Counted from the stretch's first letter, positions 4,619-22,074 are shown. The stretch: 24,000 bases of DNA from Lentzea pudingi (GCF_014646255.1 NZ_BMNC01000004.1:178480-202479); one strand, 5' to 3'. Notes: generated by a model from the letters alone, not told the origin. Translations and numbers: made by a program.

Positions 4619-4748
4619 AGCGGACGCGGGTCGGCTGGGCCGTGGCCGCGCGGCGGGCAGTCCGGCAGCGGTCGAGCTCGGCGTTGATCATGTGCGGCCG
4701 CGTGGCAGCTCTTACGCTCGGAACGCGTCCTGTCGCACTGAGGATCGA

Positions 4749-5162
4749 ATGTCGTTGCCGAGCAGAAGGCCAGGAACTCCGATGGACCCCACAGTTCGGG
4801 CCGCGTCGGTCACCGTCAGCGCAGCCGAGCACTCCGACGTGCTGGTCGTGCGGCTGTCCGGCGACCTGGACGCCGAGTCCGCCGTCGCGGCGCAGGCCGC
4901 GCTGGTCGAGATGACCGACGGGCTGATCCCGCCCGCACGGGTCGTCCTCGACCTGACAGCGGTGGACCTGCTGTCAGCAGCCGGTGTCCGCGTTCTGCAA
5001 GGCCTCGTCGGCACGTTCGCCGAGCGGAACGTCGGTGTTCGTCTCGCGGCGGACCCGGACAGCCTCGTGCACTCGATGGTGAGGCTTGCTCTGCAGGACC
5101 ACGGAATCGGTGTTCACACCAGCGTGTCAGACGCCCTCCGTGCCAGGTGTTCAGGCAGGTGA
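4749..5162 (+). CDS. STAS-domain anti-sigma-factor antagonist (RsbV/SpoIIAA-like)
   Basis: Track ORF 4692..5162. The STAS core is 'VLVVRLSGDLDAESAVAAQAAL...RVVLDLTAVDLLSAAGVRVLQGL...VGVRLAADPDSLVHSMVRLALQD'. ATG 4749 is preceded by GAGGA, and ATG 4782 is preceded by AGGAA; either could be the start. Confidence 0.8.
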   Translation: MSLPSRRPGTPMDPTVRAASVTVSAAEHSDVLVVRLSGDLDAESAVAAQAALVEMTDGLIPPARVVLDLTAVDLLSAAGVRVLQGLVGTFAERNVGVRLAADPDSLVHSMVRLALQDHGIGVHTSVSDALRARCSGR

Positions 5163-7115: not shown

Positions 7116-7124
7116 CTATGCGTG

Positions 7125-8699
7125 TCAGTCGCTGCCCTGATGGTCAGGGCGCGCGGACGCGGCACGATCGACGCGCTCGTACACCGCCAGCACCTCCTGG
7201 CCGAGCTTGTCACGCGCGTAGCGCGCCATCACACGGTCACGCGCGGCGATGCCCAACTCCTCCCTCAGCGTCTGGTCGGCGAGCAACCGCCGGAGCGTCC
7301 GAGCCAGAACACGAGGTTCACGTGGCGGTACGTGCAGGCCGGTGATGTTGTGCACGACGATGTCCTCCAGCGCGCCCACCGCGGTGGCGACCACCGGGAC
7401 ACCACACGCCATGGCCTGCAGAGCCACCAGGCCATACGGTTCGGCGGTGGGTACGCAGACCACGACGTCGGCGGAACGCAACAAGACGGGCATGCGGGCA
7501 CGGGGGACTTCGCCGGCGAACGTGACCCGGTCCCGGACCCCCAGGTCGTGTGCGAGCTCGCGCAGCTCCTGAGCGACCGTGCTGGACCTCGGGTTGTCTC
7601 CCGCGATCACCAGCTCGACGGTCTCGAGCGCGGGCAGGCACGCGATGATGTCCGCGAAATCGGTGCCGCGAAAGAATTTCCCGACGGTGACGAGACGTTG
7701 CAGCGCTCCCCGGGCGGCGACCGGGCCGTCCGGGTGGAAGTGCTCCACGTCGACTCCGGACGGGATCATGGAGACCTGGATCCGGCGCACGCCCTGTCGC
7801 CACATCTCGGAGGCTTCCGGTGAACTGGCCGCCACGACCCATGAGGCCTTGCGCGCGACGAGCCTTTCGACGTCGGCGCGCTGCTGGATCTCCTGCGCAC
7901 TGACCGCGTTGTAGGAGTGCACGACAGGGATCCAGGTCCGGCGAGAACCGATGGCGGCCGCCAGTCCGGACGTCCAGTGGTGCGTGTGCGCGATGTCCGG
8001 CGGACGCGACCTCCAGCGTTGTGCGAGGAACTGCGCGAACTCTTCGAGGTGAGGCACGACCTCGTCCTCGGTGAGCCGGCGGGCAGGCCCTGCCGGCACG
8101 TGCACCACCTCGTACCCGTCCTCGGTGCGGACGCGATCCGGAGCTCGGGGATCGTCCCGCCGGGTGTAGACGACCACTTCGTGCCCGAGGCCGCGCAGGG
8201 CTGCCGCCAGCTGTGCGACGTGCGTCCCCTGCCCGAGATCGTCAGCGAGCGGGCTGGCCTGCTCGGACACCAGGGCGATCCGCATCGACGCCCGTCCGGC
8301 CCTGCGCGCCACGCGGATCGCGTCCGACAGGGTTTCGTGTCGTGAGAAGTTTTCAGCCAACCCGGCGACCTGAAGCGTTCGCGTGATGTGCGCTCCAGGC
8401 GTGACGAGATGAAGCGGGATGTCACGGCTCCGCGCGTGCTGTTGGATTTCCATGAGCGCGTTGATGCCGGACGAACTGAAGTAGGACACCTGGCCGAGGT
8501 CGACGACGACGGCGTGGGGACACGTCTCCACCTGAGCCGCCAGCTCCGCGACCAGCGCGGGAGCCGTGCTCAGGTCGACCTCTCCCGCAACGGAAACGAT
8601 CGATATCCCGCCATCGAGTGTCGTGCCCACCGACCAATCCTCGGGCACGTCGAAAAGAGGGTCCCGCATCTCGATCGCTCCCTTGTGCCGGGACGTCAT
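7125..8699 (-). CDS. STAS domain fused to a GT4-family (GT-B, MshA/PimA-like) glycosyltransferase
   Basis: 524 aa. The STAS domain (about aa 20-125) reads 'ISIVSVAGEVDLSTAPALVAEL...AVVVDLGQVSYFSSSGINALMEI...IPLHLVTPGAHITRTLQVAGL'. The GT4 part starts at M139 with 'MRIALVSEQASPLADDLGQGTHVAQLAAALRGLGHEV', followed by 'THHWTSGL', 'VTFAGEV', 'ADVVVCVPTAEPYGLVALQAMACGVPVVATAVGALEDIV'. An alternative start is the ATG at 8669, preceded by AAGGGAG. Confidence 0.9.
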   Translation of the reverse strand: MTSRHKGAIEMRDPLFDVPEDWSVGTTLDGGISIVSVAGEVDLSTAPALVAELAAQVETCPHAVVVDLGQVSYFSSSGINALMEIQQHARSRDIPLHLVTPGAHITRTLQVAGLAENFSRHETLSDAIRVARRAGRASMRIALVSEQASPLADDLGQGTHVAQLAAALRGLGHEVVVYTRRDDPRAPDRVRTEDGYEVVHVPAGPARRLTEDEVVPHLEEFAQFLAQRWRSRPPDIAHTHHWTSGLAAAIGSRRTWIPVVHSYNAVSAQEIQQRADVERLVARKASWVVAASSPEASEMWRQGVRRIQVSMIPSGVDVEHFHPDGPVAARGALQRLVTVGKFFRGTDFADIIACLPALETVELVIAGDNPRSSTVAQELRELAHDLGVRDRVTFAGEVPRARMPVLLRSADVVVCVPTAEPYGLVALQAMACGVPVVATAVGALEDIVVHNITGLHVPPREPRVLARTLRRLLADQTLREELGIAARDRVMARYARDKLGQEVLAVYERVDRAASARPDHQGSD

Positions 8700-8784
8700 C
8701 GAGCTGAATGCTTAACCCGAGAAGCCGCTGAACGCTACCGACCGTAGCCCCCTCGCAACGCTGCCCACAAGCCGAGAAGTGTGA

Positions 8785-8810
8785 GTTTGACTTTCGCTGA
8801 GAACGGGTAT
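8785..8810 (+). promoter_or_regulatory. SigB/SigF-type promoter: GTTTGA (8785-8790) - N14 - GGGTAT (8805-8810)
   Basis: Read directly. It matches the general-stress sigma consensus (Bacillus SigB GTTTaa-N12-15-GGGtAt; Streptomyces SigB GNNTN14-16GGGTAC/T; mycobacterial SigF GTTT...GGGTAT). It lies about 75 nt upstream of the STAS gene start at 8886 and is oriented toward the STAS and RsbW-like pair. Confidence 0.5.
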
Positions 8811-8840
8811 GTCCACCGACGACCGATATGCTCAGGAAAT

Positions 8841-8854
8841 CTGATCGCGATCAG
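8841..8854. promoter_or_regulatory. Perfect 14-bp palindrome CTGATCGCGATCAG in the STAS gene leader
   Basis: Read directly; it is self-complementary. It lies between the SigB/F-type -10 element and the GTG at 8886. Confidence 0.3.
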
Positions 8855-8885
8855 TTGGCCATTCGGCAGGGAAGAGGCCTTCGGT

Positions 8886-9251
8886 GTGACTGAGCCAGCC
8901 CCGAGCGTGCAGCCGATTTCCGTCGGGATCAGCCAAGTCGGCGACCAGGTGTCGGTGGCGTCCATCGCCGGTGAGATCGACATGCTGACCGAAGCGGTGG
9001 TCCGGGACGCGGTCCGCTGCCAGCTCGCGGCAAAACCGCGCTTGCTCGTGCTGGACCTGACCGAGGTCGGGTTCATGGCGTCGTCCGGGCTCGACCTGAT
9101 CCTGCAGATCCAAGCTCGCGCGCTTGAACAGGGCACTCGCCTCTCCGTGGTCGCGAACCAGGGTTCCGTGCGCCGCCTTCTGAGTGTGAGCGGCGTCGAC
9201 ACCGCCGTGGACCTGCATCACGATCTCGGCTCGGCTCTGCGGTCGTGCTGA
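8886..9251 (+). CDS. STAS-domain anti-sigma-factor antagonist (RsbV/SpoIIAA-like)
   Basis: Track ORF 8781..9251, but its first 35 codons cover the promoter. The GTG at 8886 is preceded by GGAAGAGG. The STAS core is 'VSVASIAGEIDMLTEAVVRDAV...LLVLDLTEVGFMASSGLDLILQI...RLSVVANQGSVRRLLSVSGV', with a canonical phosphorylatable Ser in the 'ASSG' motif. Confidence 0.85.
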   Translation: MTEPAPSVQPISVGISQVGDQVSVASIAGEIDMLTEAVVRDAVRCQLAAKPRLLVLDLTEVGFMASSGLDLILQIQARALEQGTRLSVVANQGSVRRLLSVSGVDTAVDLHHDLGSALRSC

Positions 9252-9392
9252 GTGGCCGGTCAGAATGTGGATCTCGTGATGAGAACTCAACCGAAAACGG
9301 GTTTGGACTCGCTTTGCAGGTGATTGTGGCGAGAACTGGTCACCGTCGTGGTGAGATGCGGTGGATCAGCGAACGTGGAGGCAAGATCGCTC

Positions 9393-9851
9393 GTGACCAT
9401 CGCCGATGAGGACGCCGCGTCATTGGTCGTCGACCTTCCGGTCGAGCGCGAATCGCTGGTGCCCGATGTGCGCCGCGAGGTCGATGCGGCATTGCGCGAC
9501 CTGGGAGAGGATCACCGTTACGACGTGCTCCTCGTCGTGACCGAACTGGTGAGCAACGTCCTGGACCACACGGCCGGCCCCGGCCGGCTTCGAGTTCTTC
9601 GCGGCGACGCTCCCTGCGAGGTCTCGGTGGAAGTCGACGACACGTCGTCCGCGCGGCCGCGTCATGGCCGATCGAGGCTGGGCCCGCACCGCGGCAAGGG
9701 GATGGTGGTCGTGGGCAACGTCTCGAACGACTGGGGGACGAGACCGGGACCGGAGAGCGGTAAGACCGTCTTCGCGGTGATCCGATGTGGCGACGGTGCG
9801 ACGTCGGCCGCCCCATGCGAGCCCTCGGACGGCGTCCACTACGGAGTCTGA
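9393..9851 (+). CDS. RsbW/SpoIIAB-like anti-sigma factor / serine kinase (HATPase_c only)
   Basis: Track ORF 9324..9851 (TTG start). The N-box is 'VLLVVTELVSNVLDHT', followed by 'EVSVEVDDTS' and 'HRGKGMVVVGNVSNDWG...GKTVFAVI'. I prefer the GTG at 9393, with GGAGG 11 nt upstream; GTG 9375 or TTG 9324 are possible. Confidence 0.8.
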   Translation: MTIADEDAASLVVDLPVERESLVPDVRREVDAALRDLGEDHRYDVLLVVTELVSNVLDHTAGPGRLRVLRGDAPCEVSVEVDDTSSARPRHGRSRLGPHRGKGMVVVGNVSNDWGTRPGPESGKTVFAVIRCGDGATSAAPCEPSDGVHYGV

Positions 9852-9931
9852 TGGATGAGCACGACGATCAGAACGACCCAGCTGACCAGAGCGGTCACCA
9901 GGACGATCCTCAGTAGTTTGTTGCTGGACAA
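9839..9931 (-). CDS. Possible 30-aa single-TM hydrophobic peptide (below the ORF-track size cut-off)
   Basis: The reverse complement reads GAGGA-ttcccc-TTG TCC AGC AAC AAA ..., which translates to (M)SSNKLLRIVLVTALVSWVVLIVVLIHQTP*. It has a good SD and spacing and a continuous hydrophobic core. It lies 158 nt downstream of corA on the same strand and overlaps the 3' end of the RsbW-like gene by 13 nt. There is no other support. Confidence 0.25.
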   Translation of the reverse strand: MSSNKLLRIVLVTALVSWVVLIVVLIHQTP

Positions 9932-10089
9932 GGGGAATCCTCGTGGAAATCGGTGGTGGAAGGCGGAGGTTCCACTGCGTGGCCGCCTTGAGGTCGTGAC
10001 CCGGTTACGCTGAAGGCTCCTTCATGCGCCAGAGGCGCACAAGCACGTGGCTGTCGCGTGTTCGGCTGATCCCCCGGGGCACACGCCGA

Positions 10090-11139
10090 TCACAACCACC
10101 GGTTGCGCTTGAACATCCGGTAGAGCACCAGGCACGCGATGAGGATCATCGACAGGACTAGTGGATAGCCGTATCTCCAGCGCAGCTCCGGCATGTGGTC
10201 GAAGTTCATGCCGTAGACGCCGACGACCATCGTGGGCACCGCGATGATCGCGACCCAGGAGGAGATCTTGCGCATGTCGTTGTTCTGCTGCAACGACACC
10301 TTCGCCAGCGTCGCGTTCACGAGGGTGGTGAGCAGTTCGTCGAAACTGACAAGTCGCTCCACCACGATGGTCAGGTGGTCGTTGACGTTGCGGAAGTACG
10401 AGTGCAGCATCTCGGGAACCAGCGGGCCGCAGTGGTCCTCGCTGAGCTTGCGCAGCGGGCCGGTCAGCGGCATGACCGCGCGGCGCAGTTCGGTGAGTTC
10501 CCGTTTGAACAGGTACATCTGTTCCACGCCGATCTCGCTGTGCGGAGCGAACACCGCGGTCTCGATCACGTCGACGTCGCCTTCGAACGCCTCGACGACG
10601 GCGAGGTAGTCGTCGACGACGCGGTCGGCGATGGCGTGCAGCACCACCGCCGGTCCTGCGGCCAGCCGGGCGGGCTGGTCCTCCAGCTCTCTGCGGAGCT
10701 CGCCGAGCGGAGAGTGGTCGCCGTGCCGGACGGTGATGACGTAGTCGCGGCCGAGGAACACCATGATCTCGCCCGATTCGACGATCTCGTTGGCCGTGGT
10801 GGGGGACTCGTGTTCGACGTAGCGCACCGTCTTGAACACGGTGAACAGGTTGTCCGCGTAGAGCTCCAGCTTGGGCCGCTGGTGAGCGTGCACCGCGTCT
10901 TCCACGGCCAGCTCGTGCAGTCCGAACGCTTCGGTCACGTCCCGGATCTGCTCGGCGTCGGGAGCGAAGAGGCCGATCCAGACGAAGCCGGTTCCGCGAT
11001 CGCGCACCTCGGCGACCGCCTCGGCCGGTGACCGGTCGCCCGGCACGCGAGCGCCGTCGACGTAGATGCCGCAGGCCACCACCGGGTCGCGCTCTGCGGG
11101 CAACAGCCCACCTGGACTCACGCCTGCGGAAGTCGTCAT
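10090..11139 (-). CDS. corA: CorA-family Mg2+/Co2+ transporter
   Basis: Track ORF 10090..11169. The C-terminus reads 'ISSWVAIIAVPTMVVGVYGMNFDHMPELRWRYGYPLVLSMILIACLVLYRMFKRNRWL', with the signature YGMN motif between two TM helices. The cytoplasmic N-domain has typical length. ATG 11139 (MTTSAG...) is preceded by GGGAAG. Confidence 0.92.
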   Translation of the reverse strand: MTTSAGVSPGGLLPAERDPVVACGIYVDGARVPGDRSPAEAVAEVRDRGTGFVWIGLFAPDAEQIRDVTEAFGLHELAVEDAVHAHQRPKLELYADNLFTVFKTVRYVEHESPTTANEIVESGEIMVFLGRDYVITVRHGDHSPLGELRRELEDQPARLAAGPAVVLHAIADRVVDDYLAVVEAFEGDVDVIETAVFAPHSEIGVEQMYLFKRELTELRRAVMPLTGPLRKLSEDHCGPLVPEMLHSYFRNVNDHLTIVVERLVSFDELLTTLVNATLAKVSLQQNNDMRKISSWVAIIAVPTMVVGVYGMNFDHMPELRWRYGYPLVLSMILIACLVLYRMFKRNRWL

Positions 11140-11215
11140 AGCGGCGATCTTCCCTCGACAGAAGACCAATCGAACGCCGTCTGGCTATTCTTACGCGATC
11201 CTTACGCCGCGACGA

Positions 11216-13488
11216 TTACGGCAGTTGAACGCCGACGACGCAGGTGTCGTCGTCGGTGTTGGACTCGCCGTGTGCGAGCAGGTGGTCGAGCAGCTCGTCC
11301 AGGTTCGACGCCGGCGTTCGCGCTGCCTCGCACAGGTGGTCCAGGCAGTCGTCGAGCGGAACGTCCCTGCGCTCGACCAGGCCGTCGGTGTACAACAGCA
11401 GGGTGTCACCCGGTTCCAGCTGCAGCTGACCCTCCTCATAGGACGGTTCGGCGAGGGCGCCGAGCAGCACACCGCGCAGCATCGGCAGCAGTTCGGCGTC
11501 GCCGTCGCGGATCAGCACCGGCGGCAGGTGGCCCGCGCGGGCCCAGCGCAGGACGCGGGTGTGCGGATCGTAGAGGCCGCAGATCGCGGTCGCGATGATG
11601 TTGTCGCTGAGGTGGTGCGCCACGAGGTTGAGCCACGTGAGCAGTTGCGCGGGGCCGGCGCCGGTGGCGGCGAGCCCGCGCAGTGCGTTGCGCAGCACCA
11701 CCATGCCAGTCGCGCCCTTGATGCCGTGGCCGGTGATGTCACCGACCGACACGAGGATCTGCTTGGTGGGCAGGACGACGGCGTCGTACCAGTCGCCGCC
11801 GACGAGCTCCTCCTGCGCGGCGGGCCGGTACCGCACCGCCACGCGCAGTCCGAACGCGTCGATCGTGGGGTGTGTCGGCGGCATGATCACTTGCTGGAGC
11901 TGCAACGTGAGCGTGTTGCGCTCCAGGGATTCCTGCTCGGTGATCGCGAGCTGGTCCTGCGTCGCGGACAGCGCGACCTCGGTCCAGTGCTGGGCGGACA
12001 CGTCCTGGTACGCCCCGCGGACGGCGAGCAGTTCGCCCTGTGAGTCGAGCACGGGCTCGGCGATCACCCGCACGTGCCTGGTGACGCCGTCCGGGCGTTG
12101 CAGGCGGAACGCCGTCGACGCCTGCTGCCGGTCCCGCAGGACGTTGTGCACGAACCCGTTGAGCGAGAGGACGTCGTCGGGGTGGGCGTGTGCCGCGATC
12201 TCCGCCAGGGGCACCGGATCGGTGCCGGGTGCGAGCCCGTACAGGGCGTACAACTGGCTGTTCCACATGATCCTGCCGCTGTGACGTTCCTCCTCGAAAC
12301 CACCGACACGGCCGAGTCGCTGCGCGTGTTGCAACAGGTTCGCCAGACGGGCCGTCTCGTCCTGCGCCCTCCACACGACCAGGACCAGCGCACCGTGCCT
12401 GGTGATGCTCACACTGGCCGCGACCGTGAGCGGCACCTCGTCGATGAGCGCCGCGAGGGTCATGCGCTCGGCCCGGAACGATTCGCCGGTGGCGTGCACG
12501 TGCTCGATCTTGTCGAACAGGTTTCCTTCGGCCGAGGCCAGCGGGTAGGCCTCCAGCAGTGACTTGCCCGCGATCGCGGAGCGCGGCCTGCCGGCGAGGT
12601 CGACGAACCCGCGGTTCACGTGGTGCACCCGGAAGTCGGCGATCGTGCCGTCGGGCGAGATCTCCGGTCCGAGCACGAGAGCGGGGTCGAGCAGCCCGTC
12701 GGCGAGGTCGACGAGTTCGGACGGCGCCCGCGCGAGATTCGGTGCCGCGGTGCTGTCGAGGGTGGCGGCGCACAGCTGCGCCAGCGCTTCCACCTGTTTG
12801 TGCACGCTCAGGGACTGGGGCGCGAGCGGAGCAGGCCAGCAGATCTCCAGCACGCCGGCGATCCGCCCGCCGGTCCCGGCGGGGACGGCGACGCGGCCGG
12901 GCAGGCCCGGGCCGATCGACGGCAGGCCTGACTCGTCGAGGTCGACGATCCACACGGCGTCCCGCTCGACCAGCGCGCGGCGGGCGGGAGTCGACACACC
13001 GGGCGGGACGTAGTGCCAGCGGCTCGCCTCGCCCGGCTCGAACCCGGCGTGCCCGGCGAGCGTCAGCGACGCGTCGGAACCCGCTGACCAGATCGCCACC
13101 GCGCTCGCGCCCAGGGGTGCGAGCGCGTGGGTGAACAGGGACTGCGCGACGGCCTGCGTGTCATCGGCGCCCAACGCGCCGCTCTCCGCGGTCCGCAGCC
13201 GGACCGCGGTCGTTCTGCTCGGCTCGTCGGGCACCGCGGTGAGGGTGTCGCCGGACACCTCGTTGATGATCTCCACGGCGAGCGTGAGCTGTGTGATGCC
13301 TGCCTGCTCGGCGAGCAGCGCGAGCTGTTCGGCGGCCTGTGCCGGGCCGCAGCGCAGCCGTTCGACGAGCACGCCTTTGGCGAGTTCCACCAGCGCCCGG
13401 CCGTCCGCGGTGGCCCGCACCTCGTCCATCTCCCTGCTGAGCCGGTCGATCGTGCTCACGAGCCGGTTCACGGCAGGCTGACCGGCGG

Positions 13489-13492
<4 letters not shown>
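11216..13492 (-). CDS. ANTAR - GAF - PAS - PAS - PP2C/SpoIIE phosphatase multidomain protein
   Basis: Track ORF 11216..13519. The N-terminal ANTAR domain is 'VSTIDRLSREMDEVRATADGRALVELAKGVLVERLRCGPAQAAEQLALLAEQAGITQLTLAVEIINEV'. It is followed by a GAF-like region and two PAS-like regions ('LVLGPEISPDGTIADFRVHHVNRGFVDLAG', 'GRIMWNSQLYALYGL...FRLQRPDGVTRHVRVIAEPV'). The C-terminal PP2C reads 'VGGDWYDAVVL...VSVGDITGHGIKGATGMV', 'LLLYTDGLVE', 'DDDTCVVGVQL'. The preferred GTG at 13492 overlaps the upstream TGA (GTGA). Confidence 0.9.
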
Positions 13493-18033
<4,541 letters not shown>

Positions 18034-18164
18034 CCGCACTTCCTCCACTGCCTGGCTGGAACGACGTGGAGGCAGACCTGTGTCTTCAAGTGCACCTCGT
18101 TCGACCATGAGATTACTGGACCCGGGGTGCGTTCCGGACGGCTGGACGACGTCCGGCTCCGTGC

Positions 18165-18953
18165 TCAGGACCGGGTCACGGTGTCGAGCAGGTTCTTCGC
18201 GACGTCACGGAGTTTCGTGTTCTCGTGCTGCGACTGCTCCACGAGCATCTCGAAGGCTTCGTCGGCGTCGCAGGAGTGCACGGCCATCAGGACGCCCTTC
18301 GCCTGGTCGATGACGGCCCGCGACACCAGGGCCTGTTCCAGGTTGGCGATGTGGTCGCTGGTGCGCTTCCAGCGGTGGGCGCTGGCGATCGTGGTCGACG
18401 CCGCCGTCGTGAAGAGCCGCATGAGCCCCTCGTCGAACGGGTCGAAGGCCGCGGCCGTGTAGCTGTAGACGTTGAGCGACCCGAGGTGCTTCTCCTCGCC
18501 GGGCTTCGAAGCCGGCAGCAGAACCGGCACCGACAGGTAGGCCCGGATGCCGTGCTCGCTCGCCGACGCCTCGAACTCCGGCCACTCGTCGAGGTGTTCA
18601 CCGACAACCGCGCGCACGGCCTGCAGAGTACGTGCGGACTCCAGGCACGGACCTCGATCGGCGCTGTACTGCTTCTCGTCGACCTCGTTGAAACGGGCGT
18701 TCGTGGAGGCCGCGGTCCGCGGTTGCGCCAGATCCACCACCGACACCGTCACCGCGTCGGCGTCGGGAATCGCTCTGGCCGCGGTGTCCGCGAGTCTCTG
18801 CAGAGCGGTGTTGAGCGGCTCCTCGCCGGTGAAGGAGTCGCGGAGCACCGTCAGCGCCTCGGTGGTCTCGTCCAGGCGAGCGAGGGCGTCAGGGCGCCCG
18901 CCGTCGCTCGACCCGCTCGAGGAGCGGTCGAACGCGCGCGTTTCATCGGCCAT
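18165..18953 (-). CDS. GAF + ANTAR domain RNA-binding regulator
   Basis: 262 aa. The GAF-like core is 'ALQRLADTAARAIPDADAVTVSVVD...YLSVPVLL...LGSLNVYS'. The C-terminal ANTAR is 'ANLEQALVSRAVIDQAKGVLMAVHSCDADEAFEMLVEQSQHENTKLRDVAKNLLD'. The SD GAAGAGGA lies 7 nt upstream of the ATG. Confidence 0.9.
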   Translation of the reverse strand: MADETRAFDRSSSGSSDGGRPDALARLDETTEALTVLRDSFTGEEPLNTALQRLADTAARAIPDADAVTVSVVDLAQPRTAASTNARFNEVDEKQYSADRGPCLESARTLQAVRAVVGEHLDEWPEFEASASEHGIRAYLSVPVLLPASKPGEEKHLGSLNVYSYTAAAFDPFDEGLMRLFTTAASTTIASAHRWKRTSDHIANLEQALVSRAVIDQAKGVLMAVHSCDADEAFEMLVEQSQHENTKLRDVAKNLLDTVTRS

Positions 18954-19067
18954 GCCGCGGTCCTCTTCAACCGGAGGGAACTGAGTCCACGGCGCCGCTG
19001 TTTGACGTCGTCAGCGCATCGTACGGGGGCGATCAGGATGCGGTGGCGTCTGTTCGGCCGACTGGAA

Positions 19068-19120
19068 CCGGGCCGGCGCGGGGAGCTGCGATGTTTCAAC
19101 TTCCCCGCGCCGGGGCCCGG
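19068..19120. other. Long imperfect GC hairpin (17 paired bases, 17-nt loop) between the SARP gene and the GAF-ANTAR gene
   Basis: GGCGCGGGGA (19075-19084) pairs with TCCCCGCGCC (19102-19111). CCGGGCC (19068-19074) pairs with GGCCCGG (19114-19120) across a 2-nt bulge. It lies 195 nt downstream of the SARP stop, so it is a possible terminator or insulator, but its function is unproven. Confidence 0.3.
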
Positions 19121-19314
19121 CCGGTCTGCTCGTAGGCAGGCCTACCGTGCTCACGCGCACGTGCACGGCGTTGACTCAGTACCCGTCCGGCGTCGATCTC
19201 ACTCCTGAACGGATCATTCGTGACGACGGGCTGCGCGGAGTCGTGCCCTGGGGCCTGCCCGGCGGGTTCGCACAACGGGCCTGCCGCACGGCGGCGCCGT
19301 CCGCTCGCCGCTCG

Positions 19315-22074
19315 TCAAAGATCCTGCCCGGTCCGTTCGGGCAGGGCGTCGAGTTGCTTCCGGACGCGCTCCGCCTCCTCGGTCCTGCCTTGCTGCCGGT
19401 AGATCTCCAGCGCCTCCTGCCACACCGCACGCGCCTGGTCGTGCTGGCCGAGCGCGGCGTGCGGCGCGCCCAGTCCGGCCAGGGCCTCCGCGATCCCGTA
19501 GTCGTAGATGAGTTCTCGTTGCAGCGCCAGGGAATGCCGGTAGTGGTCGACGGCCAGCGCGTGGTCGCCGGCGAGGTGGGCGATGTAGCCGAGGCTGTCC
19601 AGCACCCCTGCCTCACCGGACGGGTCGTCGTGCTCGCGGTAGAGCTCCAGAGCGGCCAGGCAGTGCTCACGCGCCACGTCGTGCTGACCGAGCCGGGCGG
19701 CGAACCAGCCGACGCCGTTGAGCGATCCGGCCTCCCAGACCCGGTTGCCGAGCGCGCGGCAGAGCTCCAGGGAACGGACCGAGTGCTCCAAGGCGCGCGC
19801 GTCGTCTCCTTGTTGCTCGTACGCCCTGGCCAGGGCTGTGTGGGTGTGGGCCTGCGCGGTCTGGTCGTGTTGCCGCTCGGCCAGGACGAGAGCGCGCAGG
19901 AGGTGGTGGAGGGCCTGCCGGTGCCGGCCGAGGTCGGCGTTGGCGAGTCCCAGCTGGCGGTGGCCGAGCACGGTGGCGGCCACGTCGGGTCCCTGCTCGC
20001 TCGCGACCAGCCCGGTCTCCCAGGCACGGATCTGGGCGTGGTGGTGTCCGCGGAGCTGGTGGAAGGTGGACAGCGACCACGCCAGCTGCCAGACGGCGCG
20101 GCGCCACCCCAGTGCCGCGGTGGCGTGCTGGGCCGCCAGCAGACAGGCGTGCTCCGCGTCGAACCACGCCATGGCCGCCGCTGTGTCGGGCAACGGCTGA
20201 GGGGTGTGGCTCGGTCCGTCGAGCTCGATGTCCACGCGGTGCGGATACAGGAGGCGATCGGCGGCATGGGCGGTGTGCAGGTAAAAGCCGATCACCCGGC
20301 GCAGCGCCGACTCCCGCGCCTCCCCGTCCAAGGTGCGGTGCGCGACGTCCGCGGCGTAGTGGCGGATCAAGTCGTGCATCCCGTAACGGCCTTCGGCGCC
20401 CTGGCTGATGAGCGACGCCTGTTCGAGACCGCGCAGCGCGGTCCTGGCCTTGGCCTGGGACAGACCGGTCAACGCCGCGGCGCCGGGCAGGCCGATGCCC
20501 GGTCCCGGCGCGATGGCGAGCAGTCCGAGCACCTCGGCCTGCTCACCGGTCAGCGCGGTGTAGGACAACGACAGCACGGCGGGCAGGCTCGCGACGGGGT
20601 CTCCCTCGTCGAGCACGTCCAGCAGGCTTTCGCGCAACTCGGCCGTGAGCGCGGACAGCGACGTCCCGGGACAGGTGTGCACGCGTCCCGCGATGATGCT
20701 CAACGCGAGCGGGTAGCCGCCGCACAGCTCCACCAGTTCATCGGCGGCGTCGTGCTCCGCTTCGACCTGCGCGGCTCCGAGCCTCGCGACGAGCAGGTCC
20801 CGGGACGCGGTGTCGCTGAGGGCGTCGAGGACCAGGTGCCGGGCGCCGTGCCCCGTGGCCAGTCCGGGCATCCGGTTGCGGCTGGTCACCAGCACCGCGC
20901 ACGACGTGCCGCCCGGCAGCAGCGGGGTGACGTGGGCGGTGTCGGCGGCGTTGTCGAGGACGAAGAGCATCCGCCTGTCCGCGACGAGGCTGCGGAACAA
21001 CGCGCTCTGGGTGTGCGGGTCGGCCGGGATGCGGCCGGGCTCGATCCCGAGGGCGTCGAGGAACCCGCGTACGGCAGCGGCAGGGGACAACGCGCCGCCG
21101 TCGGGGCTGAAGCCGCGCAGGTCGACGTGCAGCTGGCCGTCGGGGAACCGATGGGCGTGCTGGTGCGCCCAGTGCAGAGCGAGCCAGGACTTGCCGATAC
21201 CGCCGGAGCCGACGACGGCCATGATGGAGGAGCGGTCCAGGAGGGAGTCCAGGGCGGTCAGCTCGTCCTGACGGCCGAGGAACGGCGCGGGCGTCATCGG
21301 CAGCTGCCGGGGAGTCGCGTTCCGGGACTCGCCGGCGGGAACGTGATCGGCGGTCAGCAACTGCTGGTGCAGGTCCTGCAACGCGGCGCCGGGCTCGGTG
21401 GCGAGCTCCTCGCGCAGGCGCGCCCGGAACCTCCGGTAGAGGTCCAGCGCGTCGCTGGTGCGGCCGGCCTGCCGCAGCGCCAGCATGTGCTGACCCGTCA
21501 CCCGCTCGTCCAACGGCAGCTGTGCGCCGCGTGCGGACAGCACGCCCACCAGCTGAGCACCTCTTCCGCGACGCAGCAGGGCGTCGGCCAGGTCGTGCTC
21601 GGCCTCCAGCCGCTCCTGCGACAGCCTGTCGCGTTCGGCTTCCGCCCACTCGCCGTTCACGCCGGTCAGCGGCTGGCCCTTCCACAGCGCCAGCGCCTCG
21701 TTCCACAGGCTCACCGCCTCGCCGTCCTCATCGCGCGCACGGGCGCACAGTGCGCGGAACTGCTGCAGGTCCGTCACCGGTTCGGTGTCGGCGAGCAGGG
21801 CGTAGCCGCCGGAACGGGACGCGATTCTCACACCGGTCCCCGCCTCGGCCAGCGCTCGGCGCAGCCGGGAGATGTAGCTGTGCAGGACCGTCCGTGACCG
21901 GTGCTCCGCGTCCGCTCCGGAAACCCGCACGACCAGACGGTCCACCTGCACGACTCGGCCCCAGTCGAGGGCGAGCGCGGCCAGTACGCACCGTTGCTTG
22001 GGCGTGCCCAGATCGACCGGTCGCCCGTCGACCTCGGCACCGACCTCGCCCAGCAGGCGAACCACCACTGCCAC
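19315..22074 (-). CDS. AfsR/SARP-family regulator (OmpR-type wHTH + BTAD + NB-ARC ATPase + TPR)
   Basis: 919 aa. The N-terminus 'VVRLLGEVGAEVDGRPVDLGTPKQRCVLAALAL...' is a SARP DNA-binding domain. The BTAD reads 'LWKGQPLTG...ERLEAEHDLADALLRRG...LDERVTGQHMLALRQAGRTSDALDLYRRFRARLREELATEPGAALQDLHQQLL'. The Walker A is 'MAVVGSGGIGKSWLA', followed by 'MLFVLDNA', 'VLVTSR' and 'CGGYPLAL'. The C-terminus holds TPR repeats. The GTG start has GGGGAG 7 nt upstream. Confidence 0.92.
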   Translation of the reverse strand: MAVVVRLLGEVGAEVDGRPVDLGTPKQRCVLAALALDWGRVVQVDRLVVRVSGADAEHRSRTVLHSYISRLRRALAEAGTGVRIASRSGGYALLADTEPVTDLQQFRALCARARDEDGEAVSLWNEALALWKGQPLTGVNGEWAEAERDRLSQERLEAEHDLADALLRRGRGAQLVGVLSARGAQLPLDERVTGQHMLALRQAGRTSDALDLYRRFRARLREELATEPGAALQDLHQQLLTADHVPAGESRNATPRQLPMTPAPFLGRQDELTALDSLLDRSSIMAVVGSGGIGKSWLALHWAHQHAHRFPDGQLHVDLRGFSPDGGALSPAAAVRGFLDALGIEPGRIPADPHTQSALFRSLVADRRMLFVLDNAADTAHVTPLLPGGTSCAVLVTSRNRMPGLATGHGARHLVLDALSDTASRDLLVARLGAAQVEAEHDAADELVELCGGYPLALSIIAGRVHTCPGTSLSALTAELRESLLDVLDEGDPVASLPAVLSLSYTALTGEQAEVLGLLAIAPGPGIGLPGAAALTGLSQAKARTALRGLEQASLISQGAEGRYGMHDLIRHYAADVAHRTLDGEARESALRRVIGFYLHTAHAADRLLYPHRVDIELDGPSHTPQPLPDTAAAMAWFDAEHACLLAAQHATAALGWRRAVWQLAWSLSTFHQLRGHHHAQIRAWETGLVASEQGPDVAATVLGHRQLGLANADLGRHRQALHHLLRALVLAERQHDQTAQAHTHTALARAYEQQGDDARALEHSVRSLELCRALGNRVWEAGSLNGVGWFAARLGQHDVAREHCLAALELYREHDDPSGEAGVLDSLGYIAHLAGDHALAVDHYRHSLALQRELIYDYGIAEALAGLGAPHAALGQHDQARAVWQEALEIYRQQGRTEEAERVRKQLDALPERTGQDL

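What the first reader, a model, noticed from the sequence alone, without database searches (positions are those of the whole stretch)
10090..18953. One co-directional string: GAF-ANTAR, poly-HAMP hybrid kinase, ANTAR-PP2C, CorA
Four minus-strand genes run with short gaps. There are 131 nt between the GAF-ANTAR stop and the kinase ATG. The kinase stop and the ANTAR-PP2C start share a 4-nt GTGA overlap (13492-13489), which suggests translational coupling. There are 76 nt between the PP2C stop and the corA ATG. Two ANTAR (RNA-binding antiterminator) domains, a hybrid kinase with no separate Hpt or cognate response regulator, a Mg2+/Mn2+-dependent PP2C phosphatase and a Mg2+ channel in one unit is not a described system. 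It is reminiscent of the Streptomyces coelicolor osaA/osaC osmoadaptation genes (a large sensor kinase next to a multidomain RsbW-PAS-GAF-PP2C regulator of SigB, as I recall them). Here, however, an ANTAR domain replaces the RsbW-like domain, and the string lies 240 bp from the partner-switching island. This suggests a signalling route from the poly-HAMP kinase to STAS dephosphorylation and/or RNA-level control.
Basis: partly seen in the sequence, partly recalled or inferred. Interest (0 to 1): 0.7.

Follow-up and report, generated by a model that had tools for sequence, protein, structure and literature searches.

The report
Conserved poly-HAMP kinase plus phosphatase pair
Only the two middle genes of the reported four-gene string form a real unit: a giant soluble sensor kinase and a multi-sensor protein phosphatase that stay together across soil actinomycetes, probably feed stress-response sigma-factor switches, and have not been studied.

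Summary
The coordinates, domain calls, 131-nt and 76-nt gaps and the GTGA stop/start overlap are all correct. The window comes from a Lentzea-like actinomycete.

The four genes are not one conserved unit. In 80 of 80 related loci from nine genera, the poly-HAMP hybrid kinase lies directly upstream of the ANTAR-GAF-PAS-PAS-PP2C gene on the same strand. The start overlaps the kinase stop in 29 of 80, including all Lentzea and Nocardia. CorA occurs in 0 of 80, and downstream only in a 97%-identical relative. A GAF-ANTAR orthologue occurs in 0 of 80. Lentzea kinase genes carry their own conserved upstream leader whatever gene precedes them.

The phosphatase's ANTAR domain is divergent. It keeps 2 of 11 EutV RNA-contact positions, and I found no ANTAR target motif nearby. 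Partner-switching genes (STAS, RsbW/T-like, extra PP2C) cluster next to the pair: 35 of 80 loci have one within 2 kb, and density falls about tenfold by 4-5 kb.

The best reading is a two-gene stress-sensing cassette that feeds sigma-B-type partner switching. How the kinase reaches a phosphatase that has no receiver domain is unknown. It is a new variant of kinase-to-PP2C systems (RsbK/RsbY, RsfS/RsfR, OsaA/OsaC). The Mg2+ and RNA-control ideas are unsupported.

The parts
13489..18033 (-). Soluble poly-HAMP hybrid histidine kinase (1514 aa), first gene of the conserved pair
   Evidence: Pfam finds 7 HAMP + 7 HAMP_2, GAF, HisKA, HATPase_c and Response_reg. The best PDB match is the AskA poly-HAMP structure 9trk, E 3.7e-86. 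H970, the G1/G2 boxes, DD1399-1400, D1445, T1474 and K1496 are present, and no TM-like segment was found. A homologue lies directly upstream of the PP2C gene in 80/80 loci at 74-93% identity.
15904..17961 (-). Poly-HAMP array (about seven ~92-aa di-HAMP modules)
   Evidence: Pfam HAMP/HAMP_2, 7 stretches each; PDB 9trk/9trj.
15412..15819 (-). GAF domain of the kinase
   Evidence: Pfam GAF_2, E 1e-21.
14443..15153 (-). HisKA + HATPase_c catalytic core
   Evidence: Pfam; the HELRTP H-box is at aa 970.
13864..14400 (-). Degenerate (pseudo-)receiver region between the catalytic core and the receiver domain
   Evidence: Weak match only, to receiver structure 3c3m, E 0.0012. Pfam did not detect it.
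13513..13851 (-). C-terminal receiver (REC) domain with intact phospho-acceptor pocket
   Evidence: Pfam Response_reg, E 3e-29; DD, D, T and K motifs.
13489..13492 (-). GTGA: the kinase stop overlaps the phosphatase start
   Evidence: Sequence. The same 4-nt overlap is called in L081-L084 and annotated by PGAP in S. fungicidicus p1. An overlapping candidate start exists in 29/80 loci.
11216..13492 (-). ANTAR-like / GAF / PAS / PAS / PP2C (SpoIIE-family) phosphatase (758 aa), second gene of the conserved pair
   Evidence: Pfam. There are 1752 homologues, with >60% identity across Lentzea, Nocardia, Streptomyces and Nonomuraea. The catalytic Asp motifs GGDWYD, GDITGHG, TDGL and DDDT are invariant in 16 homologues.
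13265..13423 (-). Divergent N-terminal ANTAR-like three-helix domain, preceded by a long helix
   Evidence: Pfam ANTAR 35.4 bits (cut-off 27.3). The AF2 model has helices 5-46, 50-64 and 68-85. The family profile hits only EutV 6wsh, at E 0.067, and 2 of 11 RNA-contact positions are kept (PMC8934654). It shows no BLASTP similarity to the neighbouring GAF-ANTAR's ANTAR.
12743..13222 (-). GAF domain of the phosphatase protein
   Evidence: AF2 model with pLDDT >90 here. Foldseek finds GAF folds 1f5m and 3ci6, E ~1e-8.
11225..11764 (-). PP2C (SpoIIE) catalytic domain
   Evidence: Pfam SpoIIE, E 3e-47. The closest solved structure is Rv1364c, 3ke6, E 9e-19.
18034..18120 (-). Leader of the kinase gene, conserved within Lentzea. 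It holds a -10-like TAATCT (18115-18110), the block GAGGTGCACTTGAA, an anti-SD CCTCCAC (18072-18066) and the SD GGAGGA (18046-18041).
   Evidence: Alignment of 9 Lentzea loci that have different upstream genes. nhmmer E 1e-17 to 1e-22 in the 8 other Lentzea loci aligned (all of which were used to build the model, so these scores are partly circular) and no significant hit in the 76 other loci searched (71 from other genera, 5 further Lentzea). The RNAalifold structure is weak.
18134..18156 (-). Hairpin CCGGACG-N9-CGTCCGG, 8 nt after the GAF-ANTAR stop. It is a possible U-tract-less terminator.
   Evidence: Sequence and fold. The consensus terminator scan, which requires a T run, does not call it.
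18165..18953 (-). GAF-ANTAR protein (262 aa). It is an independent neighbour, not part of the conserved pair.
   Evidence: Pfam ANTAR 76 bits + GAF. It matches PAL 6hmj and NasR 4akk. No orthologue lies next to the pair in 80 loci or in the two close relatives whose contigs reach upstream of the kinase, L081 and L082.
10090..11139 (-). CorA-family Mg2+/Co2+ channel. It is a lineage-specific neighbour, not part of the conserved pair.
   Evidence: Pfam CorA, E 4e-53. TIGR00383 scores 177 bits, below its 200.75 cut-off. The YGMNF motif is present. It is absent from 80/80 loci and present only in the 97% relative L084.
8781..9851 (+). STAS anti-sigma antagonist (8781-9251) and RsbW/RsbA-like kinase (9324-9851). 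This is the nearest partner-switching pair, convergent with corA.
   Evidence: NCBIfam TIGR00377 at 60 bits (cut-off 53.45) and an RsbA_anti_sig hit; Pfam HATPase_c_2.

Best explanation
The functional unit is a two-gene operon, not four genes.

Gene 1 is a soluble poly-HAMP/GAF hybrid histidine kinase, the same kind as Myxococcus AskA, Streptomyces OsaA and fungal group III kinases. Gene 2 starts on the kinase's stop codon. It encodes a multi-sensor PP2C phosphatase with an N-terminal coiled-coil and divergent ANTAR-like bundle, followed by GAF, two PAS domains and an active-looking SpoIIE-type catalytic domain.

**Shown:** the pair is kept together, in this order, across at least nine actinomycete genera. 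Nothing else is kept with it. Partner-switching genes (STAS, RsbW/RsbT-like kinases, further PP2Cs, sigma-B-type sigmas) accumulate right beside it.

**Inferred:**
- The kinase senses a cytoplasmic physical stress, most likely osmotic or ionic, by analogy with OsaA and the fungal kinases.
- The PP2C dephosphorylates phospho-STAS antagonists encoded in trans. Here these would be the STAS, STAS-glycosyltransferase and fused PAS-PP2C-RsbW-STAS genes at 5151-9251. This would modulate sigma-B-like sigma factors or STAS-fused enzymes.
- Neither protein has an Hpt domain and the phosphatase has no receiver domain. The kinase therefore most likely controls the phosphatase by protein contact: its own phosphorylated C-terminal receiver docking on the phosphatase's N-terminal helical domain. 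This last step is the weakest.

The GAF-ANTAR and corA genes are separately evolving neighbours. CorA may still be read through in this one lineage.

My confidence differs by part: about 0.9 that the conserved unit is the two-gene pair and the other two genes are incidental; about 0.55 that the PP2C feeds partner switching; about 0.3 for direct receiver-to-ANTAR-like docking. The overall figure given is for the model as a whole.
For: - Kinase-PP2C adjacency holds in 80/80 loci.
- All-against-all clustering of flanking ORFs finds only these two conserved clusters; the next largest covers 13 loci.
- Flanking genes have random orientation: 35+/35- upstream, 39+/38- downstream.
- An overlapping or <=~100-nt junction is available in essentially all loci. 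A 4-nt or 1-nt overlap is available in 29/80, including 7/7 Lentzea and 14/14 Nocardia. PGAP annotates a 4-nt overlap in S. fungicidicus.
- Lentzea kinase genes have their own conserved leader.
- Catalytic motifs are intact in both proteins.
- Among immediate neighbours, HATPase_c_2 occurs 7 times downstream and 10 upstream, STAS 6 and 4, sigma-70 r2-r4 4 and 3, and SpoIIE 2 and 7.
- A partner-switching ORF lies within 2 kb in 35/80 loci. Density falls from 3.28 per 10 kb at 0-1 kb to 0.28 at 4-5 kb.
- S. fungicidicus p1 and five chromosomal Streptomyces loci carry STAS, RsbR/S/T-like genes and two PP2Cs directly downstream on the same strand.
- No response regulator or Hpt recurs beside the pair in actinomycetes. 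The S. coelicolor review reports that the genome has no Hpt proteins (PMC9739842).
- Precedents for a kinase controlling a PP2C that acts on a STAS protein are RsfS/RsfR (PMC10950880) and RsbK/RsbY (PMC4574943).
- In alpha-proteobacteria, the 59%-identical kinase is likewise followed at +10 or -14 nt by a signalling partner whose N-terminus is a receiver domain.
Against: - There is no experimental evidence for co-transcription, for an interaction, or for the PP2C's substrate.
- The partner-switching association is absent in most Nocardia (2/14) and Nonomuraea (1/6) loci at my detection sensitivity.
- Actinomycete genomes are rich in such genes. The distance-decay control covers only 5 kb.
- I found no fusion protein joining a receiver domain or the kinase to the ANTAR-GAF module among 150 representative hits. 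The docking step therefore has no Rosetta-stone support.
- The ANTAR domain passes Pfam's threshold, so RNA binding is not excluded.
- The stimulus is inferred only by analogy.
Confidence: 0.55

Rival explanations
1. One reading: all four genes form one operon. It would link a poly-HAMP kinase, two RNA-binding ANTAR regulators, a Mg2+/Mn2+-dependent PP2C and a Mg2+ channel.
For: All four genes are co-directional with short gaps. No consensus terminator lies on the minus strand between them. The 97%-identical relative also has corA after the PP2C gene.
Against: - CorA is absent from 80/80 loci and from the 87%, 88% and 90% relatives.
- A GAF-ANTAR orthologue is absent from 80/80 loci and from both close relatives whose contigs reach upstream of the kinase (L081, L082).
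- The kinase has its own conserved leader with a -10-like element inside the 131-nt gap.
- A G+C hairpin follows the GAF-ANTAR stop.
- No M-box or other Rfam element precedes corA.
Confidence: 0.05
2. The phosphatase protein is a genuine ANTAR RNA-binding regulator. Its N-terminal ANTAR binds dual-hairpin RNAs elsewhere in the genome. The GAF/PAS sensors, and perhaps the kinase, control RNA binding, with PP2C as a second output.
For: Pfam ANTAR scores above the gathering threshold, at 35.4 vs 27.3 bits. R32 and K39, the equivalents of EutV R142 and K149, are invariant. Paralogous ANTAR-GAF proteins score up to 57 bits per ANTAR copy. ANTAR targets in actinomycetes are diverse and usually unlinked to the protein gene (PMC8164766).
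Against: - Nine of 11 EutV RNA-contact positions are replaced. These include E160->P and Y164->A (60- and 55-fold loss when mutated in EutV) and M172->E (essential) (PMC8934654).
- phmmer with the single sequence finds no solved ANTAR protein.
- No dual-hexaloop motif occurs in the window (0 vs 2.1 expected) or in the four leaders.
- The N-terminal position is atypical for an ANTAR output domain.
Confidence: 0.15
3. The kinase and phosphatase share an operon but do not signal to each other. The kinase phosphorylates an unlinked orphan response regulator (OsaB-like). The PP2C responds only to its own GAF/PAS inputs.
For: The phosphatase has no receiver domain. No fusion links the two proteins. 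OsaA/OsaB/OsaC are adjacent yet not co-transcribed and act partly independently (PMC10117811). Orphan regulators are common in actinomycetes (PMC9739842).
Against: Strict adjacency in 80/80 loci, with frequent stop/start overlap, across families that share no other neighbour. This argues for stoichiometric co-production and a joint function.
Confidence: 0.2
4. The PP2C acts on the kinase itself. It would remove Ser/Thr phosphates from the HAMP array or the receiver region as a reset or adaptation device, and would not act on STAS proteins.
For: The genetic coupling is tight. Authors have suggested that post-translational modification of poly-HAMP arrays tunes them (PMC13446029). Most Nocardia and Nonomuraea loci lack a nearby STAS gene.
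Against: The catalytic domain is closest to partner-switching phosphatases (Rv1364c, RssB, SpoIIE). STAS and RsbW/T genes are enriched locally. No Ser/Thr kinase is conserved with the pair.
Confidence: 0.1

Closest known systems
Streptomyces coelicolor OsaA/OsaB/OsaC osmoadaptation genes (SCO5748/5749/5747), and the uncharacterised paralogous hybrid kinase SCO7327 ('OsaD')
   Same: Both have a large cytosolic hybrid kinase with many HAMP domains and no Hpt partner, in an actinomycete. Both sit next to a multi-domain PAS/GAF/PP2C regulator tied to sigma-B control (PMC9739842, PMC10117811). SCO7325, close to SCO7327 by locus number, is an anti-sigma antagonist. This matches the kinase-PP2C-STAS order seen in S. 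fungicidicus.
   Different: As described in the literature, OsaC carries an N-terminal RsbW-like domain that binds SigB. Here the N-terminus is ANTAR-like. The Osa locus has a response regulator, OsaB, and its genes are not co-transcribed. Here there is no regulator and the two genes overlap. I could not retrieve the S. coelicolor sequences, so whether this pair equals SCO7327/SCO7326 remains unverified (one search did not return them).
Poly-HAMP histidine kinases: Myxococcus xanthus AskA and fungal group III hybrid kinases (Nik1/Os-1/Drk1)
   Same: All have a soluble array of concatenated di-HAMP modules in front of a HisKA-HATPase-REC core. The match to the AskA structure 9trk is E 3.7e-86. 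[quoted passage not shown]
   Different: The fungal kinases pass phosphate to Ypd1 (an Hpt protein) and then Ssk1. Here there is no Hpt, and the conserved partner is a PP2C phosphatase. This kinase also carries a GAF domain and a pseudo-receiver.
Two-component control of PP2C phosphatases that act on STAS proteins: Bacillus cereus RsbK/RsbY and Mycobacterium smegmatis RsfS/RsfR
   Same: All have a sensor kinase (RsbK is also a hybrid with HAMP and GAF) encoded next to a PP2C phosphatase that sets the phosphorylation state of an anti-sigma antagonist (PMC4574943, PMC10950880).
   Different: RsbY and RsfR receive the phosphate on their own N-terminal receiver domain. The phosphatase here has none, carrying ANTAR-like, GAF and two PAS domains instead. 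Any kinase-to-phosphatase link must therefore work differently.
ANTAR regulators (EutV, NasR, AmiR, PdtaR/Rv1626)
   Same: The three-helix ANTAR signature passes Pfam's threshold in both window proteins, and a coiled-coil helix leads into it.
   Different: In the known regulators ANTAR is the C-terminal RNA-binding output. In the phosphatase it is N-terminal and keeps 2/11 RNA-contact positions, and no target motif lies nearby. The separate GAF-ANTAR protein is much more canonical (76 bits; hits PAL and NasR).
Alpha-proteobacterial poly-HAMP kinase + REC-kinase pairs (Rhizobium pRL12, Methylocystis pGW6_2)
   Same: The kinase is 59-60% identical over ~1470 residues. It is immediately followed (+10 nt or -14 nt) by a co-directional signalling partner.
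   Different: The partner there is REC-HisKA-HATPase-REC or REC-HWE_HK-REC, not a phosphatase. Its N-terminus is a standard receiver domain.

Membership tests
Poly-HAMP histidine kinases (AskA / OsaA / fungal group III type) | Long array of concatenated, highly similar di-HAMP modules | tested here: met
   7 HAMP + 7 HAMP_2 stretches; AskA 9trk at E 3.7e-86 and 9trj at E 3.5e-40.
Poly-HAMP histidine kinases (AskA / OsaA / fungal group III type) | Soluble protein, no membrane-spanning segment | tested here: met
   The highest 19-residue Kyte-Doolittle mean is 1.85. It falls in a charged GAF strand ([19 protein letters not shown]), so no TM-like segment was found. This is a simple hydropathy test only.
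Poly-HAMP histidine kinases (AskA / OsaA / fungal group III type) | HisKA-HATPase_c core followed by a receiver domain (hybrid kinase), with intact H, G1, G2 and Asp sites | tested here: met
   Pfam; motif positions H970, 1129, 1159 and D1445.
Osa system of Streptomyces (OsaA/OsaB/OsaC) | OsaB-type response regulator (REC + coiled coil) encoded after the kinase | tested here: not met
   The gene after the kinase is the PP2C in 80/80 loci. Response_reg is not among the recurrent neighbour families.
Osa system of Streptomyces (OsaA/OsaB/OsaC) | PP2C regulator with an N-terminal RsbW-like anti-sigma kinase domain (OsaC) | tested here: not met
   Pfam finds no HATPase_c_2 in the 758-aa protein. 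Its N-terminus is ANTAR + GAF.
Osa system of Streptomyces (OsaA/OsaB/OsaC) | Orthology of the kinase to SCO5748 (OsaA) or SCO7327 (OsaD) | not testable with these tools
   S. coelicolor sequences were not retrievable. A search from a Streptomyces homologue returned no S. coelicolor entry in its top 120.
ANTAR RNA-binding regulators | ANTAR domain above Pfam's gathering score | tested here: met
   PP2C protein 35.4 bits and GAF-ANTAR 76.3 bits, against a cut-off of 27.3.
ANTAR RNA-binding regulators | Conservation of the RNA-contacting residues defined in EutV (R142, K143, K147, K149, E160, Y164, R168, M172, N173, R175, R177) | tested here: not met
   The PP2C protein keeps only R32 and K39. 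P50, A54 and E62 replace E160, Y164 and M172 (PMC8934654). The alignment is weak (E 0.067) but anchored on the invariant AKG motif. GAF-ANTAR keeps 4/11, which is inconclusive for that protein.
ANTAR RNA-binding regulators | Dual stem-loop target RNA with A1/G4 hexaloops near regulated genes | tested here: not met
   The strict scan of the window found 0, against 2.1 +/- 1.3 in shuffles. The relaxed scan of -200..+30 around the four starts found 0, against a background of 0.83. No Rfam match. Targets elsewhere in the genome could not be searched.
Partner-switching PP2C phosphatases (RsbU / RsbP / SpoIIE / Rv1364c type) | SpoIIE-family PP2C domain with the metal-binding aspartates | tested here: met
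   Pfam SpoIIE, E 2.8e-47. D567, D570, D585, D703 and D747-749 are invariant. The best solved relative is Rv1364c.
Partner-switching PP2C phosphatases (RsbU / RsbP / SpoIIE / Rv1364c type) | STAS substrate and RsbW-type kinase encoded in the neighbourhood | tested here: inconclusive
   Present in the window (8781-9851, 5151-8699) and within 2 kb in 35/80 loci, with about tenfold distance decay. Absent in most Nocardia and Nonomuraea loci.
Partner-switching PP2C phosphatases (RsbU / RsbP / SpoIIE / Rv1364c type) | Dephosphorylates a phospho-STAS protein | not testable with these tools
   This needs biochemistry.
Two-component-controlled PP2C (RsbK/RsbY, RsfS/RsfR) | Receiver domain on the phosphatase that accepts phosphate from the kinase | tested here: not met
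   Pfam finds no Response_reg in the phosphatase or in 10 sampled relatives of its N-terminal module.
CorA Mg2+/Co2+ channels | CorA domain with two C-terminal TM helices and the GMN motif | tested here: met
   Pfam CorA, E 4e-53. The YGMNF motif and a hydrophobic C-terminus are present. TIGR00383 scores 177 bits, below its 200.75 equivalog cut-off.
   Kinase + PP2C in 80/80, CorA in 0/80, GAF-ANTAR orthologue in 0/80. Only the 97% relative keeps corA.

The most novel reading that the evidence does not exclude
An ANTAR domain has been exapted from RNA binding to protein-protein signalling. In this reading, the phosphorylated C-terminal receiver of the poly-HAMP hybrid kinase docks in trans on the phosphatase's N-terminal coiled-coil/ANTAR-like bundle. 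That would be the REC-ANTAR pairing of PdtaR/EutV split across two overlapping genes. Docking would switch the PP2C dimer on or off.

This would give Hpt-less cytosolic poly-HAMP kinases (probably including the orphan SCO7327/OsaD) a direct, receiver-less route into sigma-B partner switching. It would be the actinomycete counterpart of the fungal group III kinase-to-HOG osmostress pathway.
Probability: 0.2. Interest if true: 0.75.

Novelty: new variant of a known kind. Interest (0 to 1): 0.5.

Why it matters
Reviews of Streptomyces signalling state that the cascades of the cytosolic hybrid kinases OsaA and SCO7327 are unclear, and that no Hpt protein exists (PMC9739842). Bacterial poly-HAMP kinases in general are described as poorly characterised (PMC13446029).

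This analysis shows that one such kinase is locked to a specific PP2C phosphatase gene in every genome sampled, often by stop/start overlap. The kinase is 74-93% identical across actinomycete families and 59% identical to rhizobial homologues. The pair also sits beside partner-switching modules. Together these give a concrete, testable downstream partner and output for this kinase class.

The work also flags a widespread N-terminal ANTAR-GAF module whose ANTAR has lost most RNA-contact residues. This matters for anyone counting 'ANTAR regulators' in actinomycete genomes.

Finally, it removes a misleading lead: the Mg2+ channel and the second ANTAR protein are incidental neighbours.

Tried and rejected
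1. **Four-gene operon.** Rejected by synteny.
2. **Local ANTAR target RNA.** Rfam at E<=1 gave only two chance miRNA hits. The strict and relaxed dual-hexaloop scans found nothing. The seed sequences of the published actinobacterial ANTAR model are not in the held supplement, which has coordinates only, so I could not build a covariance model.
3. **Structured RNA in the 131-nt and 76-nt gaps.** The fold z-scores are 0.23 and 0.00. The Lentzea leader has conserved sequence blocks but only a weak consensus fold (-8.6 kcal/mol). The anti-SD/SD pairing cannot show covariation because the SD side is invariant.
4. **Rosetta-stone fusion of REC or kinase to the ANTAR-GAF module.** None appeared among 150 representative hits. 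Four hits with an N-terminal extension were checked: three carry no REC (unassigned sequence or an extra GAF) and the fourth, P0330, gave no Pfam match at all.
5. **Mapping to S. coelicolor SCO7327/SCO7326.** The key papers are not held. A homologue search seeded from S. griseoflavus returned no S. coelicolor protein. Only indirect support was found: SCO7327 is called 'OsaD' and SCO7325 is a STAS protein.
6. **Consensus promoter/terminator scan.** It found no sigma-70-type promoter and no T-tract terminator on the minus strand. This is uninformative in a 70% G+C actinomycete.
7. **Specific NCBIfam names for the kinase or phosphatase.** None reached a curated cut-off.

Full report
**1. What is in the window**

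The window is about 70% G+C. Its proteins are closest to Lentzea (Pseudonocardiaceae), with the phosphatase 87-97% identical to Lentzea entries.

Minus-strand genes across the finding, with Pfam evidence:
- CorA, 10090-11139.
- A 758-aa ANTAR / PAS / PAS / SpoIIE-PP2C protein, 11216-13492.
- A 1514-aa kinase, 13489-18033, with 7 HAMP + 7 HAMP_2, GAF, HisKA, HATPase_c and one receiver domain.
- A 262-aa GAF-ANTAR protein, 18165-18953.

The neighbours are as follows.
- Upstream lie an AfsR-like SARP (BTAD-NB-ARC-TPR, 19315-22074) and a LuxR-type gene.
- Downstream lies a dense partner-switching island:
  - a STAS antagonist at 8781-9251 (+);
  - an RsbW/RsbA-like kinase at 9324-9851 (+);
  - a STAS-glycosyltransferase fusion at 7125-8699 (-);
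  - an Rv1364c-like PAS-PP2C-RsbW-STAS fusion at 5151-7115 (-);
  - another RsbW-like gene at 4133-4618 (+).

**2. Checking the observation**

- The kinase ATG at 18033 has a GGAGGA 7 nt upstream and lies 131 nt after the GAF-ANTAR stop. Other Lentzea kinases align from residue 1 at this start.
- The kinase TGA overlaps a GTG at 13492. Lentzea homologues are annotated from exactly this start.
- The corA ATG at 11139 is 76 nt after the PP2C stop.
- Both enzymes look active. The kinase has its H-box, G1 and G2 boxes and the receiver DD/D/T/K residues. The phosphatase has all PP2C aspartate motifs, invariant in 16 homologues.
- Neither has a membrane-like segment.
- Between the catalytic core and the receiver, the kinase has a weak pseudo-receiver.
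- An AlphaFold model of phosphatase residues 1-270 has pLDDT 83.7. It shows a long helix (5-46) and two further helices, which form the ANTAR-like bundle, followed by a GAF domain that Foldseek confirms.
- The full architecture is therefore ANTAR-like / GAF / PAS / PAS / PP2C.

**3. What is conserved**

I collected 80 loci encoding relatives of the phosphatase from one-genome-per-species collections. They come from Lentzea, Nocardia, Streptomyces, Nonomuraea, Streptosporangium, Actinomadura, Kitasatospora, Umezawaea and Streptoalloteichus.

- tblastn with all window proteins shows the kinase directly upstream, on the same strand, in 80/80 loci at 74-93% identity.
- CorA is present in 0/80.
- A GAF-ANTAR orthologue is present in 0/80. 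Only two 33%-identical hits turned up, and they lie elsewhere in their loci.
- All-against-all clustering of flanking ORFs finds just two conserved clusters, the kinase and the phosphatase. The next largest cluster covers 13 loci.
- The nearest flanking genes are on either strand at random.

Close relatives tell the same story.

| Relative (identity) | Locus | Downstream of PP2C | Other notes |
|---|---|---|---|
| 97% | L084 | corA | contig too short to show upstream genes |
| 90% | L083 | dehydrogenase | contig ends inside the kinase gene |
| 88% | L082 | RsbW-like gene | no GAF-ANTAR upstream |
| 87% (L. cavernae) | L081 | STAS-glycosyltransferase | no GAF-ANTAR upstream |

The conserved unit is therefore the kinase-phosphatase pair alone.

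**4. Operon structure**

- A start codon overlapping the kinase stop by 4 or 1 nt is available in 29/80 loci: 7/7 Lentzea, 14/14 Nocardia, 7/48 Streptomyces and the one Actinomadura locus. Elsewhere the first in-frame start is usually within about 100 nt.
- PGAP independently annotates a 4-nt overlap in Streptomyces fungicidicus plasmid p1.
- Upstream of the kinase, nine Lentzea loci with unrelated upstream genes share a ~95-nt conserved stretch. nhmmer gives E 1e-17 to 1e-22 in the eight other aligned Lentzea loci. All of these were used to build the model, so the scores are partly circular. There was no significant hit in the 76 other loci searched, 71 of them from other genera.
- This stretch contains a TAnnnT -10-like element (window 18115-18110), two conserved blocks, and a CCTCCAC that can pair with the Shine-Dalgarno.
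- This places a promoter and leader for the kinase inside the 131-nt gap.
- Together with a 7-bp G+C hairpin just after the GAF-ANTAR stop, this argues that GAF-ANTAR is a separate transcription unit.
- The leader's consensus fold is weak. I treat the SD-sequestering hairpin as a possibility only.
- Whether corA is read through in this strain cannot be decided from sequence.

**5. The ANTAR question**

- The GAF-ANTAR protein is a conventional ANTAR protein. It scores 76 bits and matches PAL 6hmj and NasR 4akk.
- The phosphatase's ANTAR is not conventional. It scores 35 bits, gets no solved ANTAR by phmmer, and shows no BLASTP similarity to the neighbouring ANTAR.
- A 27-sequence family profile finds only EutV in the whole PDB, at E 0.067.
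- In that alignment, anchored on the invariant AKG motif, only 2 of the 11 residues that contact RNA in the EutV-RNA structure are kept. E160, Y164 and M172, whose mutation most damages binding (PMC8934654), are replaced by P, A and E.
- As a caution, the canonical-scoring GAF-ANTAR keeps only 4 of the 11. EutV residues are therefore an imperfect yardstick in actinomycetes.
- No dual-hexaloop target motif occurs in the window or in the four leaders, and Rfam finds nothing.
- The ANTAR-GAF module is nearly always N-terminal in its relatives. It is combined with PAS-PAS-PP2C, duplicated, or preceded by another GAF, and is never fused to a receiver or to the kinase.
- RNA-level control by the phosphatase is thus unsupported, though not excluded.

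**6. What the pair connects to**

- Pfam scans of the immediate neighbours in 70 (upstream) and 77 (downstream) loci show that the most frequent families are HATPase_c_2 (RsbW/RsbT-like), STAS, SpoIIE, group-3 sigma-factor regions and MEDS.
- A phmmer screen of six-frame ORFs finds a STAS, RsbW/T-like or PP2C ORF within 2 kb in 35/80 loci: Lentzea 6/7, Streptomyces 26/48, Nocardia 2/14 and Nonomuraea 1/6.
- Density falls from 3.28 per 10 kb at 0-1 kb to 0.28 at 4-5 kb.
- In S. fungicidicus p1 and five chromosomal Streptomyces loci, the pair is followed on the same strand by a STAS gene, RsbR/RsbS/RsbT-like genes and two more PP2Cs.
- No response regulator or Hpt recurs.
- The PP2C domain's closest solved relatives are partner-switching phosphatases (Rv1364c, RssB, SpoIIE).

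**7. Mechanism**

- *Shown:* a conserved, tightly linked two-gene cassette; enzymes that look intact; local enrichment of partner-switching genes.
- *Inferred from known families:* poly-HAMP kinases of fungi and OsaA act in osmotic stress (PMC13446029, PMC10117811). PP2Cs of this family dephosphorylate STAS antagonists. Kinases can control such PP2Cs (RsbK/RsbY, RsfS/RsfR).
- *Speculative:* the phosphatase has no receiver and there is no Hpt. The kinase's own phosphorylated receiver may therefore act in trans on the phosphatase's N-terminal coiled-coil/ANTAR-like bundle, the domain type that is natively wired to receiver domains in EutV and PdtaR.
- *A suggestive parallel:* 59-60%-identical kinases on Rhizobium and Methylocystis replicons are likewise followed at +10 or -14 nt by a partner gene. 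That partner's N-terminus is a receiver domain, in a REC-kinase-REC arrangement. The downstream partner is the conserved principle, and its N-terminal module differs by phylum.

**8. Comparison with what is known, and novelty**

- The kinase is a member of the poly-HAMP kinase family (membership features met).
- The locus is not an Osa locus. It has no OsaB-type regulator and no RsbW-like domain on the phosphatase.
- It is probably the counterpart of the uncharacterised S. coelicolor orphan hybrid kinase SCO7327 ('OsaD'), which is close by locus number to the STAS gene SCO7325. I could not verify that.
- It works like RsbK/RsbY or RsfS/RsfR but fails their defining feature, a receiver on the phosphatase.
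- I found no paper describing an ANTAR-PP2C protein or its pairing with a poly-HAMP kinase. NCBIfam has no specific model for either protein.
- I rate it a new variant of a known kind, of moderate interest. The reported four-gene 'system', its Mg2+ theme and its RNA theme are not real features of the conserved unit.

Noticed in passing
window 18034-18120 (minus strand); L001-L002, L004-L007, L081, L082 upstream of the kinase: A ~95-nt leader is conserved across Lentzea species that have unrelated upstream genes. It has a TAnnnT -10-like element, a conserved GAGGTGCGCTTGAA block, and an anti-SD CCTCCAC that can pair with the SD GTGGAGG. This may be a translational switch on the kinase gene.
   Followed up: partly
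window 4133-9851: A dense partner-switching island. It contains an RsbW-like gene (4133-4618 +), an Rv1364c-like fused PAS-PP2C-RsbW-STAS protein (5151-7115 -), a STAS domain fused to a GT4 glycosyltransferase (7125-8699 -), a STAS antagonist that only NCBIfam detected (8781-9251 +), and an RsbW/RsbA-like gene (9324-9851 +). STAS-GT4 fusions recur next to the kinase-PP2C pair in other Lentzea and Umezawaea loci (L002, L008, L081). This hints that a glycosyltransferase is under partner-switching control.
   Followed up: partly
L086 (Rhizobium ruizarguesonis pRL12) 4768-12754; L087 (Methylocystis rosea pGW6_2) 5614-12532: The kinase has 59-60%-identical homologues over ~1470 residues on replicons of alpha-proteobacteria (109 Rhizobium records) and other phyla. 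There it has 11+11 HAMP domains and three receivers. It is followed at +10 or -14 nt by a REC-HisKA-HATPase-REC or REC-HWE_HK-REC gene. This level of conservation across phyla is unusually high for a signalling protein.
   Followed up: partly
L085 (Streptomyces fungicidicus plasmid p1) 3367-16477; also L027, L047, L057, L067, L073: In one Streptomyces lineage the pair is embedded in a stressosome-like array. Two RsbW-like genes lie upstream. Downstream on the same strand lie a STAS gene, RsbR-like, RsbS-like and RsbT-like genes, an ATP-binding PP2C and a further PP2C.
   Followed up: partly
window ~19066-19123 (minus strand): A very stable long G+C hairpin (GGCCGGGCCCCGGCGCGGGG...CCCCGCGCCGGCCCGG) lies between the SARP stop (19315) and the GAF-ANTAR start (18953). 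The 376-nt region folds better than shuffles (z = -2.4). It is probably the SARP terminator, or a 5' element of the GAF-ANTAR transcript.
   Followed up: no
L001-L080, kinase genes: tblastn coverage of the kinase clusters at about 1.00, 0.92, 0.86 and 0.80. This fits orthologues that differ by whole ~92-aa di-HAMP modules, although tblastn may also have split the repetitive alignment. Such copy-number change within the array between species has been proposed for poly-HAMP kinases.
   Followed up: no
window 8001-11000: G+C dips to 0.65 over corA and the STAS/RsbW pair, against 0.69-0.72 on either side. corA is missing at this position in all but the closest relative. Both points fit a recent insertion or rearrangement downstream of the PP2C gene.
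   Followed up: partly
P0272, P0313, P0309 (representative-library hits): The N-terminal ANTAR-GAF module also occurs as tandem (ANTAR-GAF)x2-PAS proteins of 940-1085 aa, and as GAF-ANTAR-GAF. These architectures place ANTAR at the N-terminus or in the middle, unlike all characterised ANTAR regulators.
   Followed up: no
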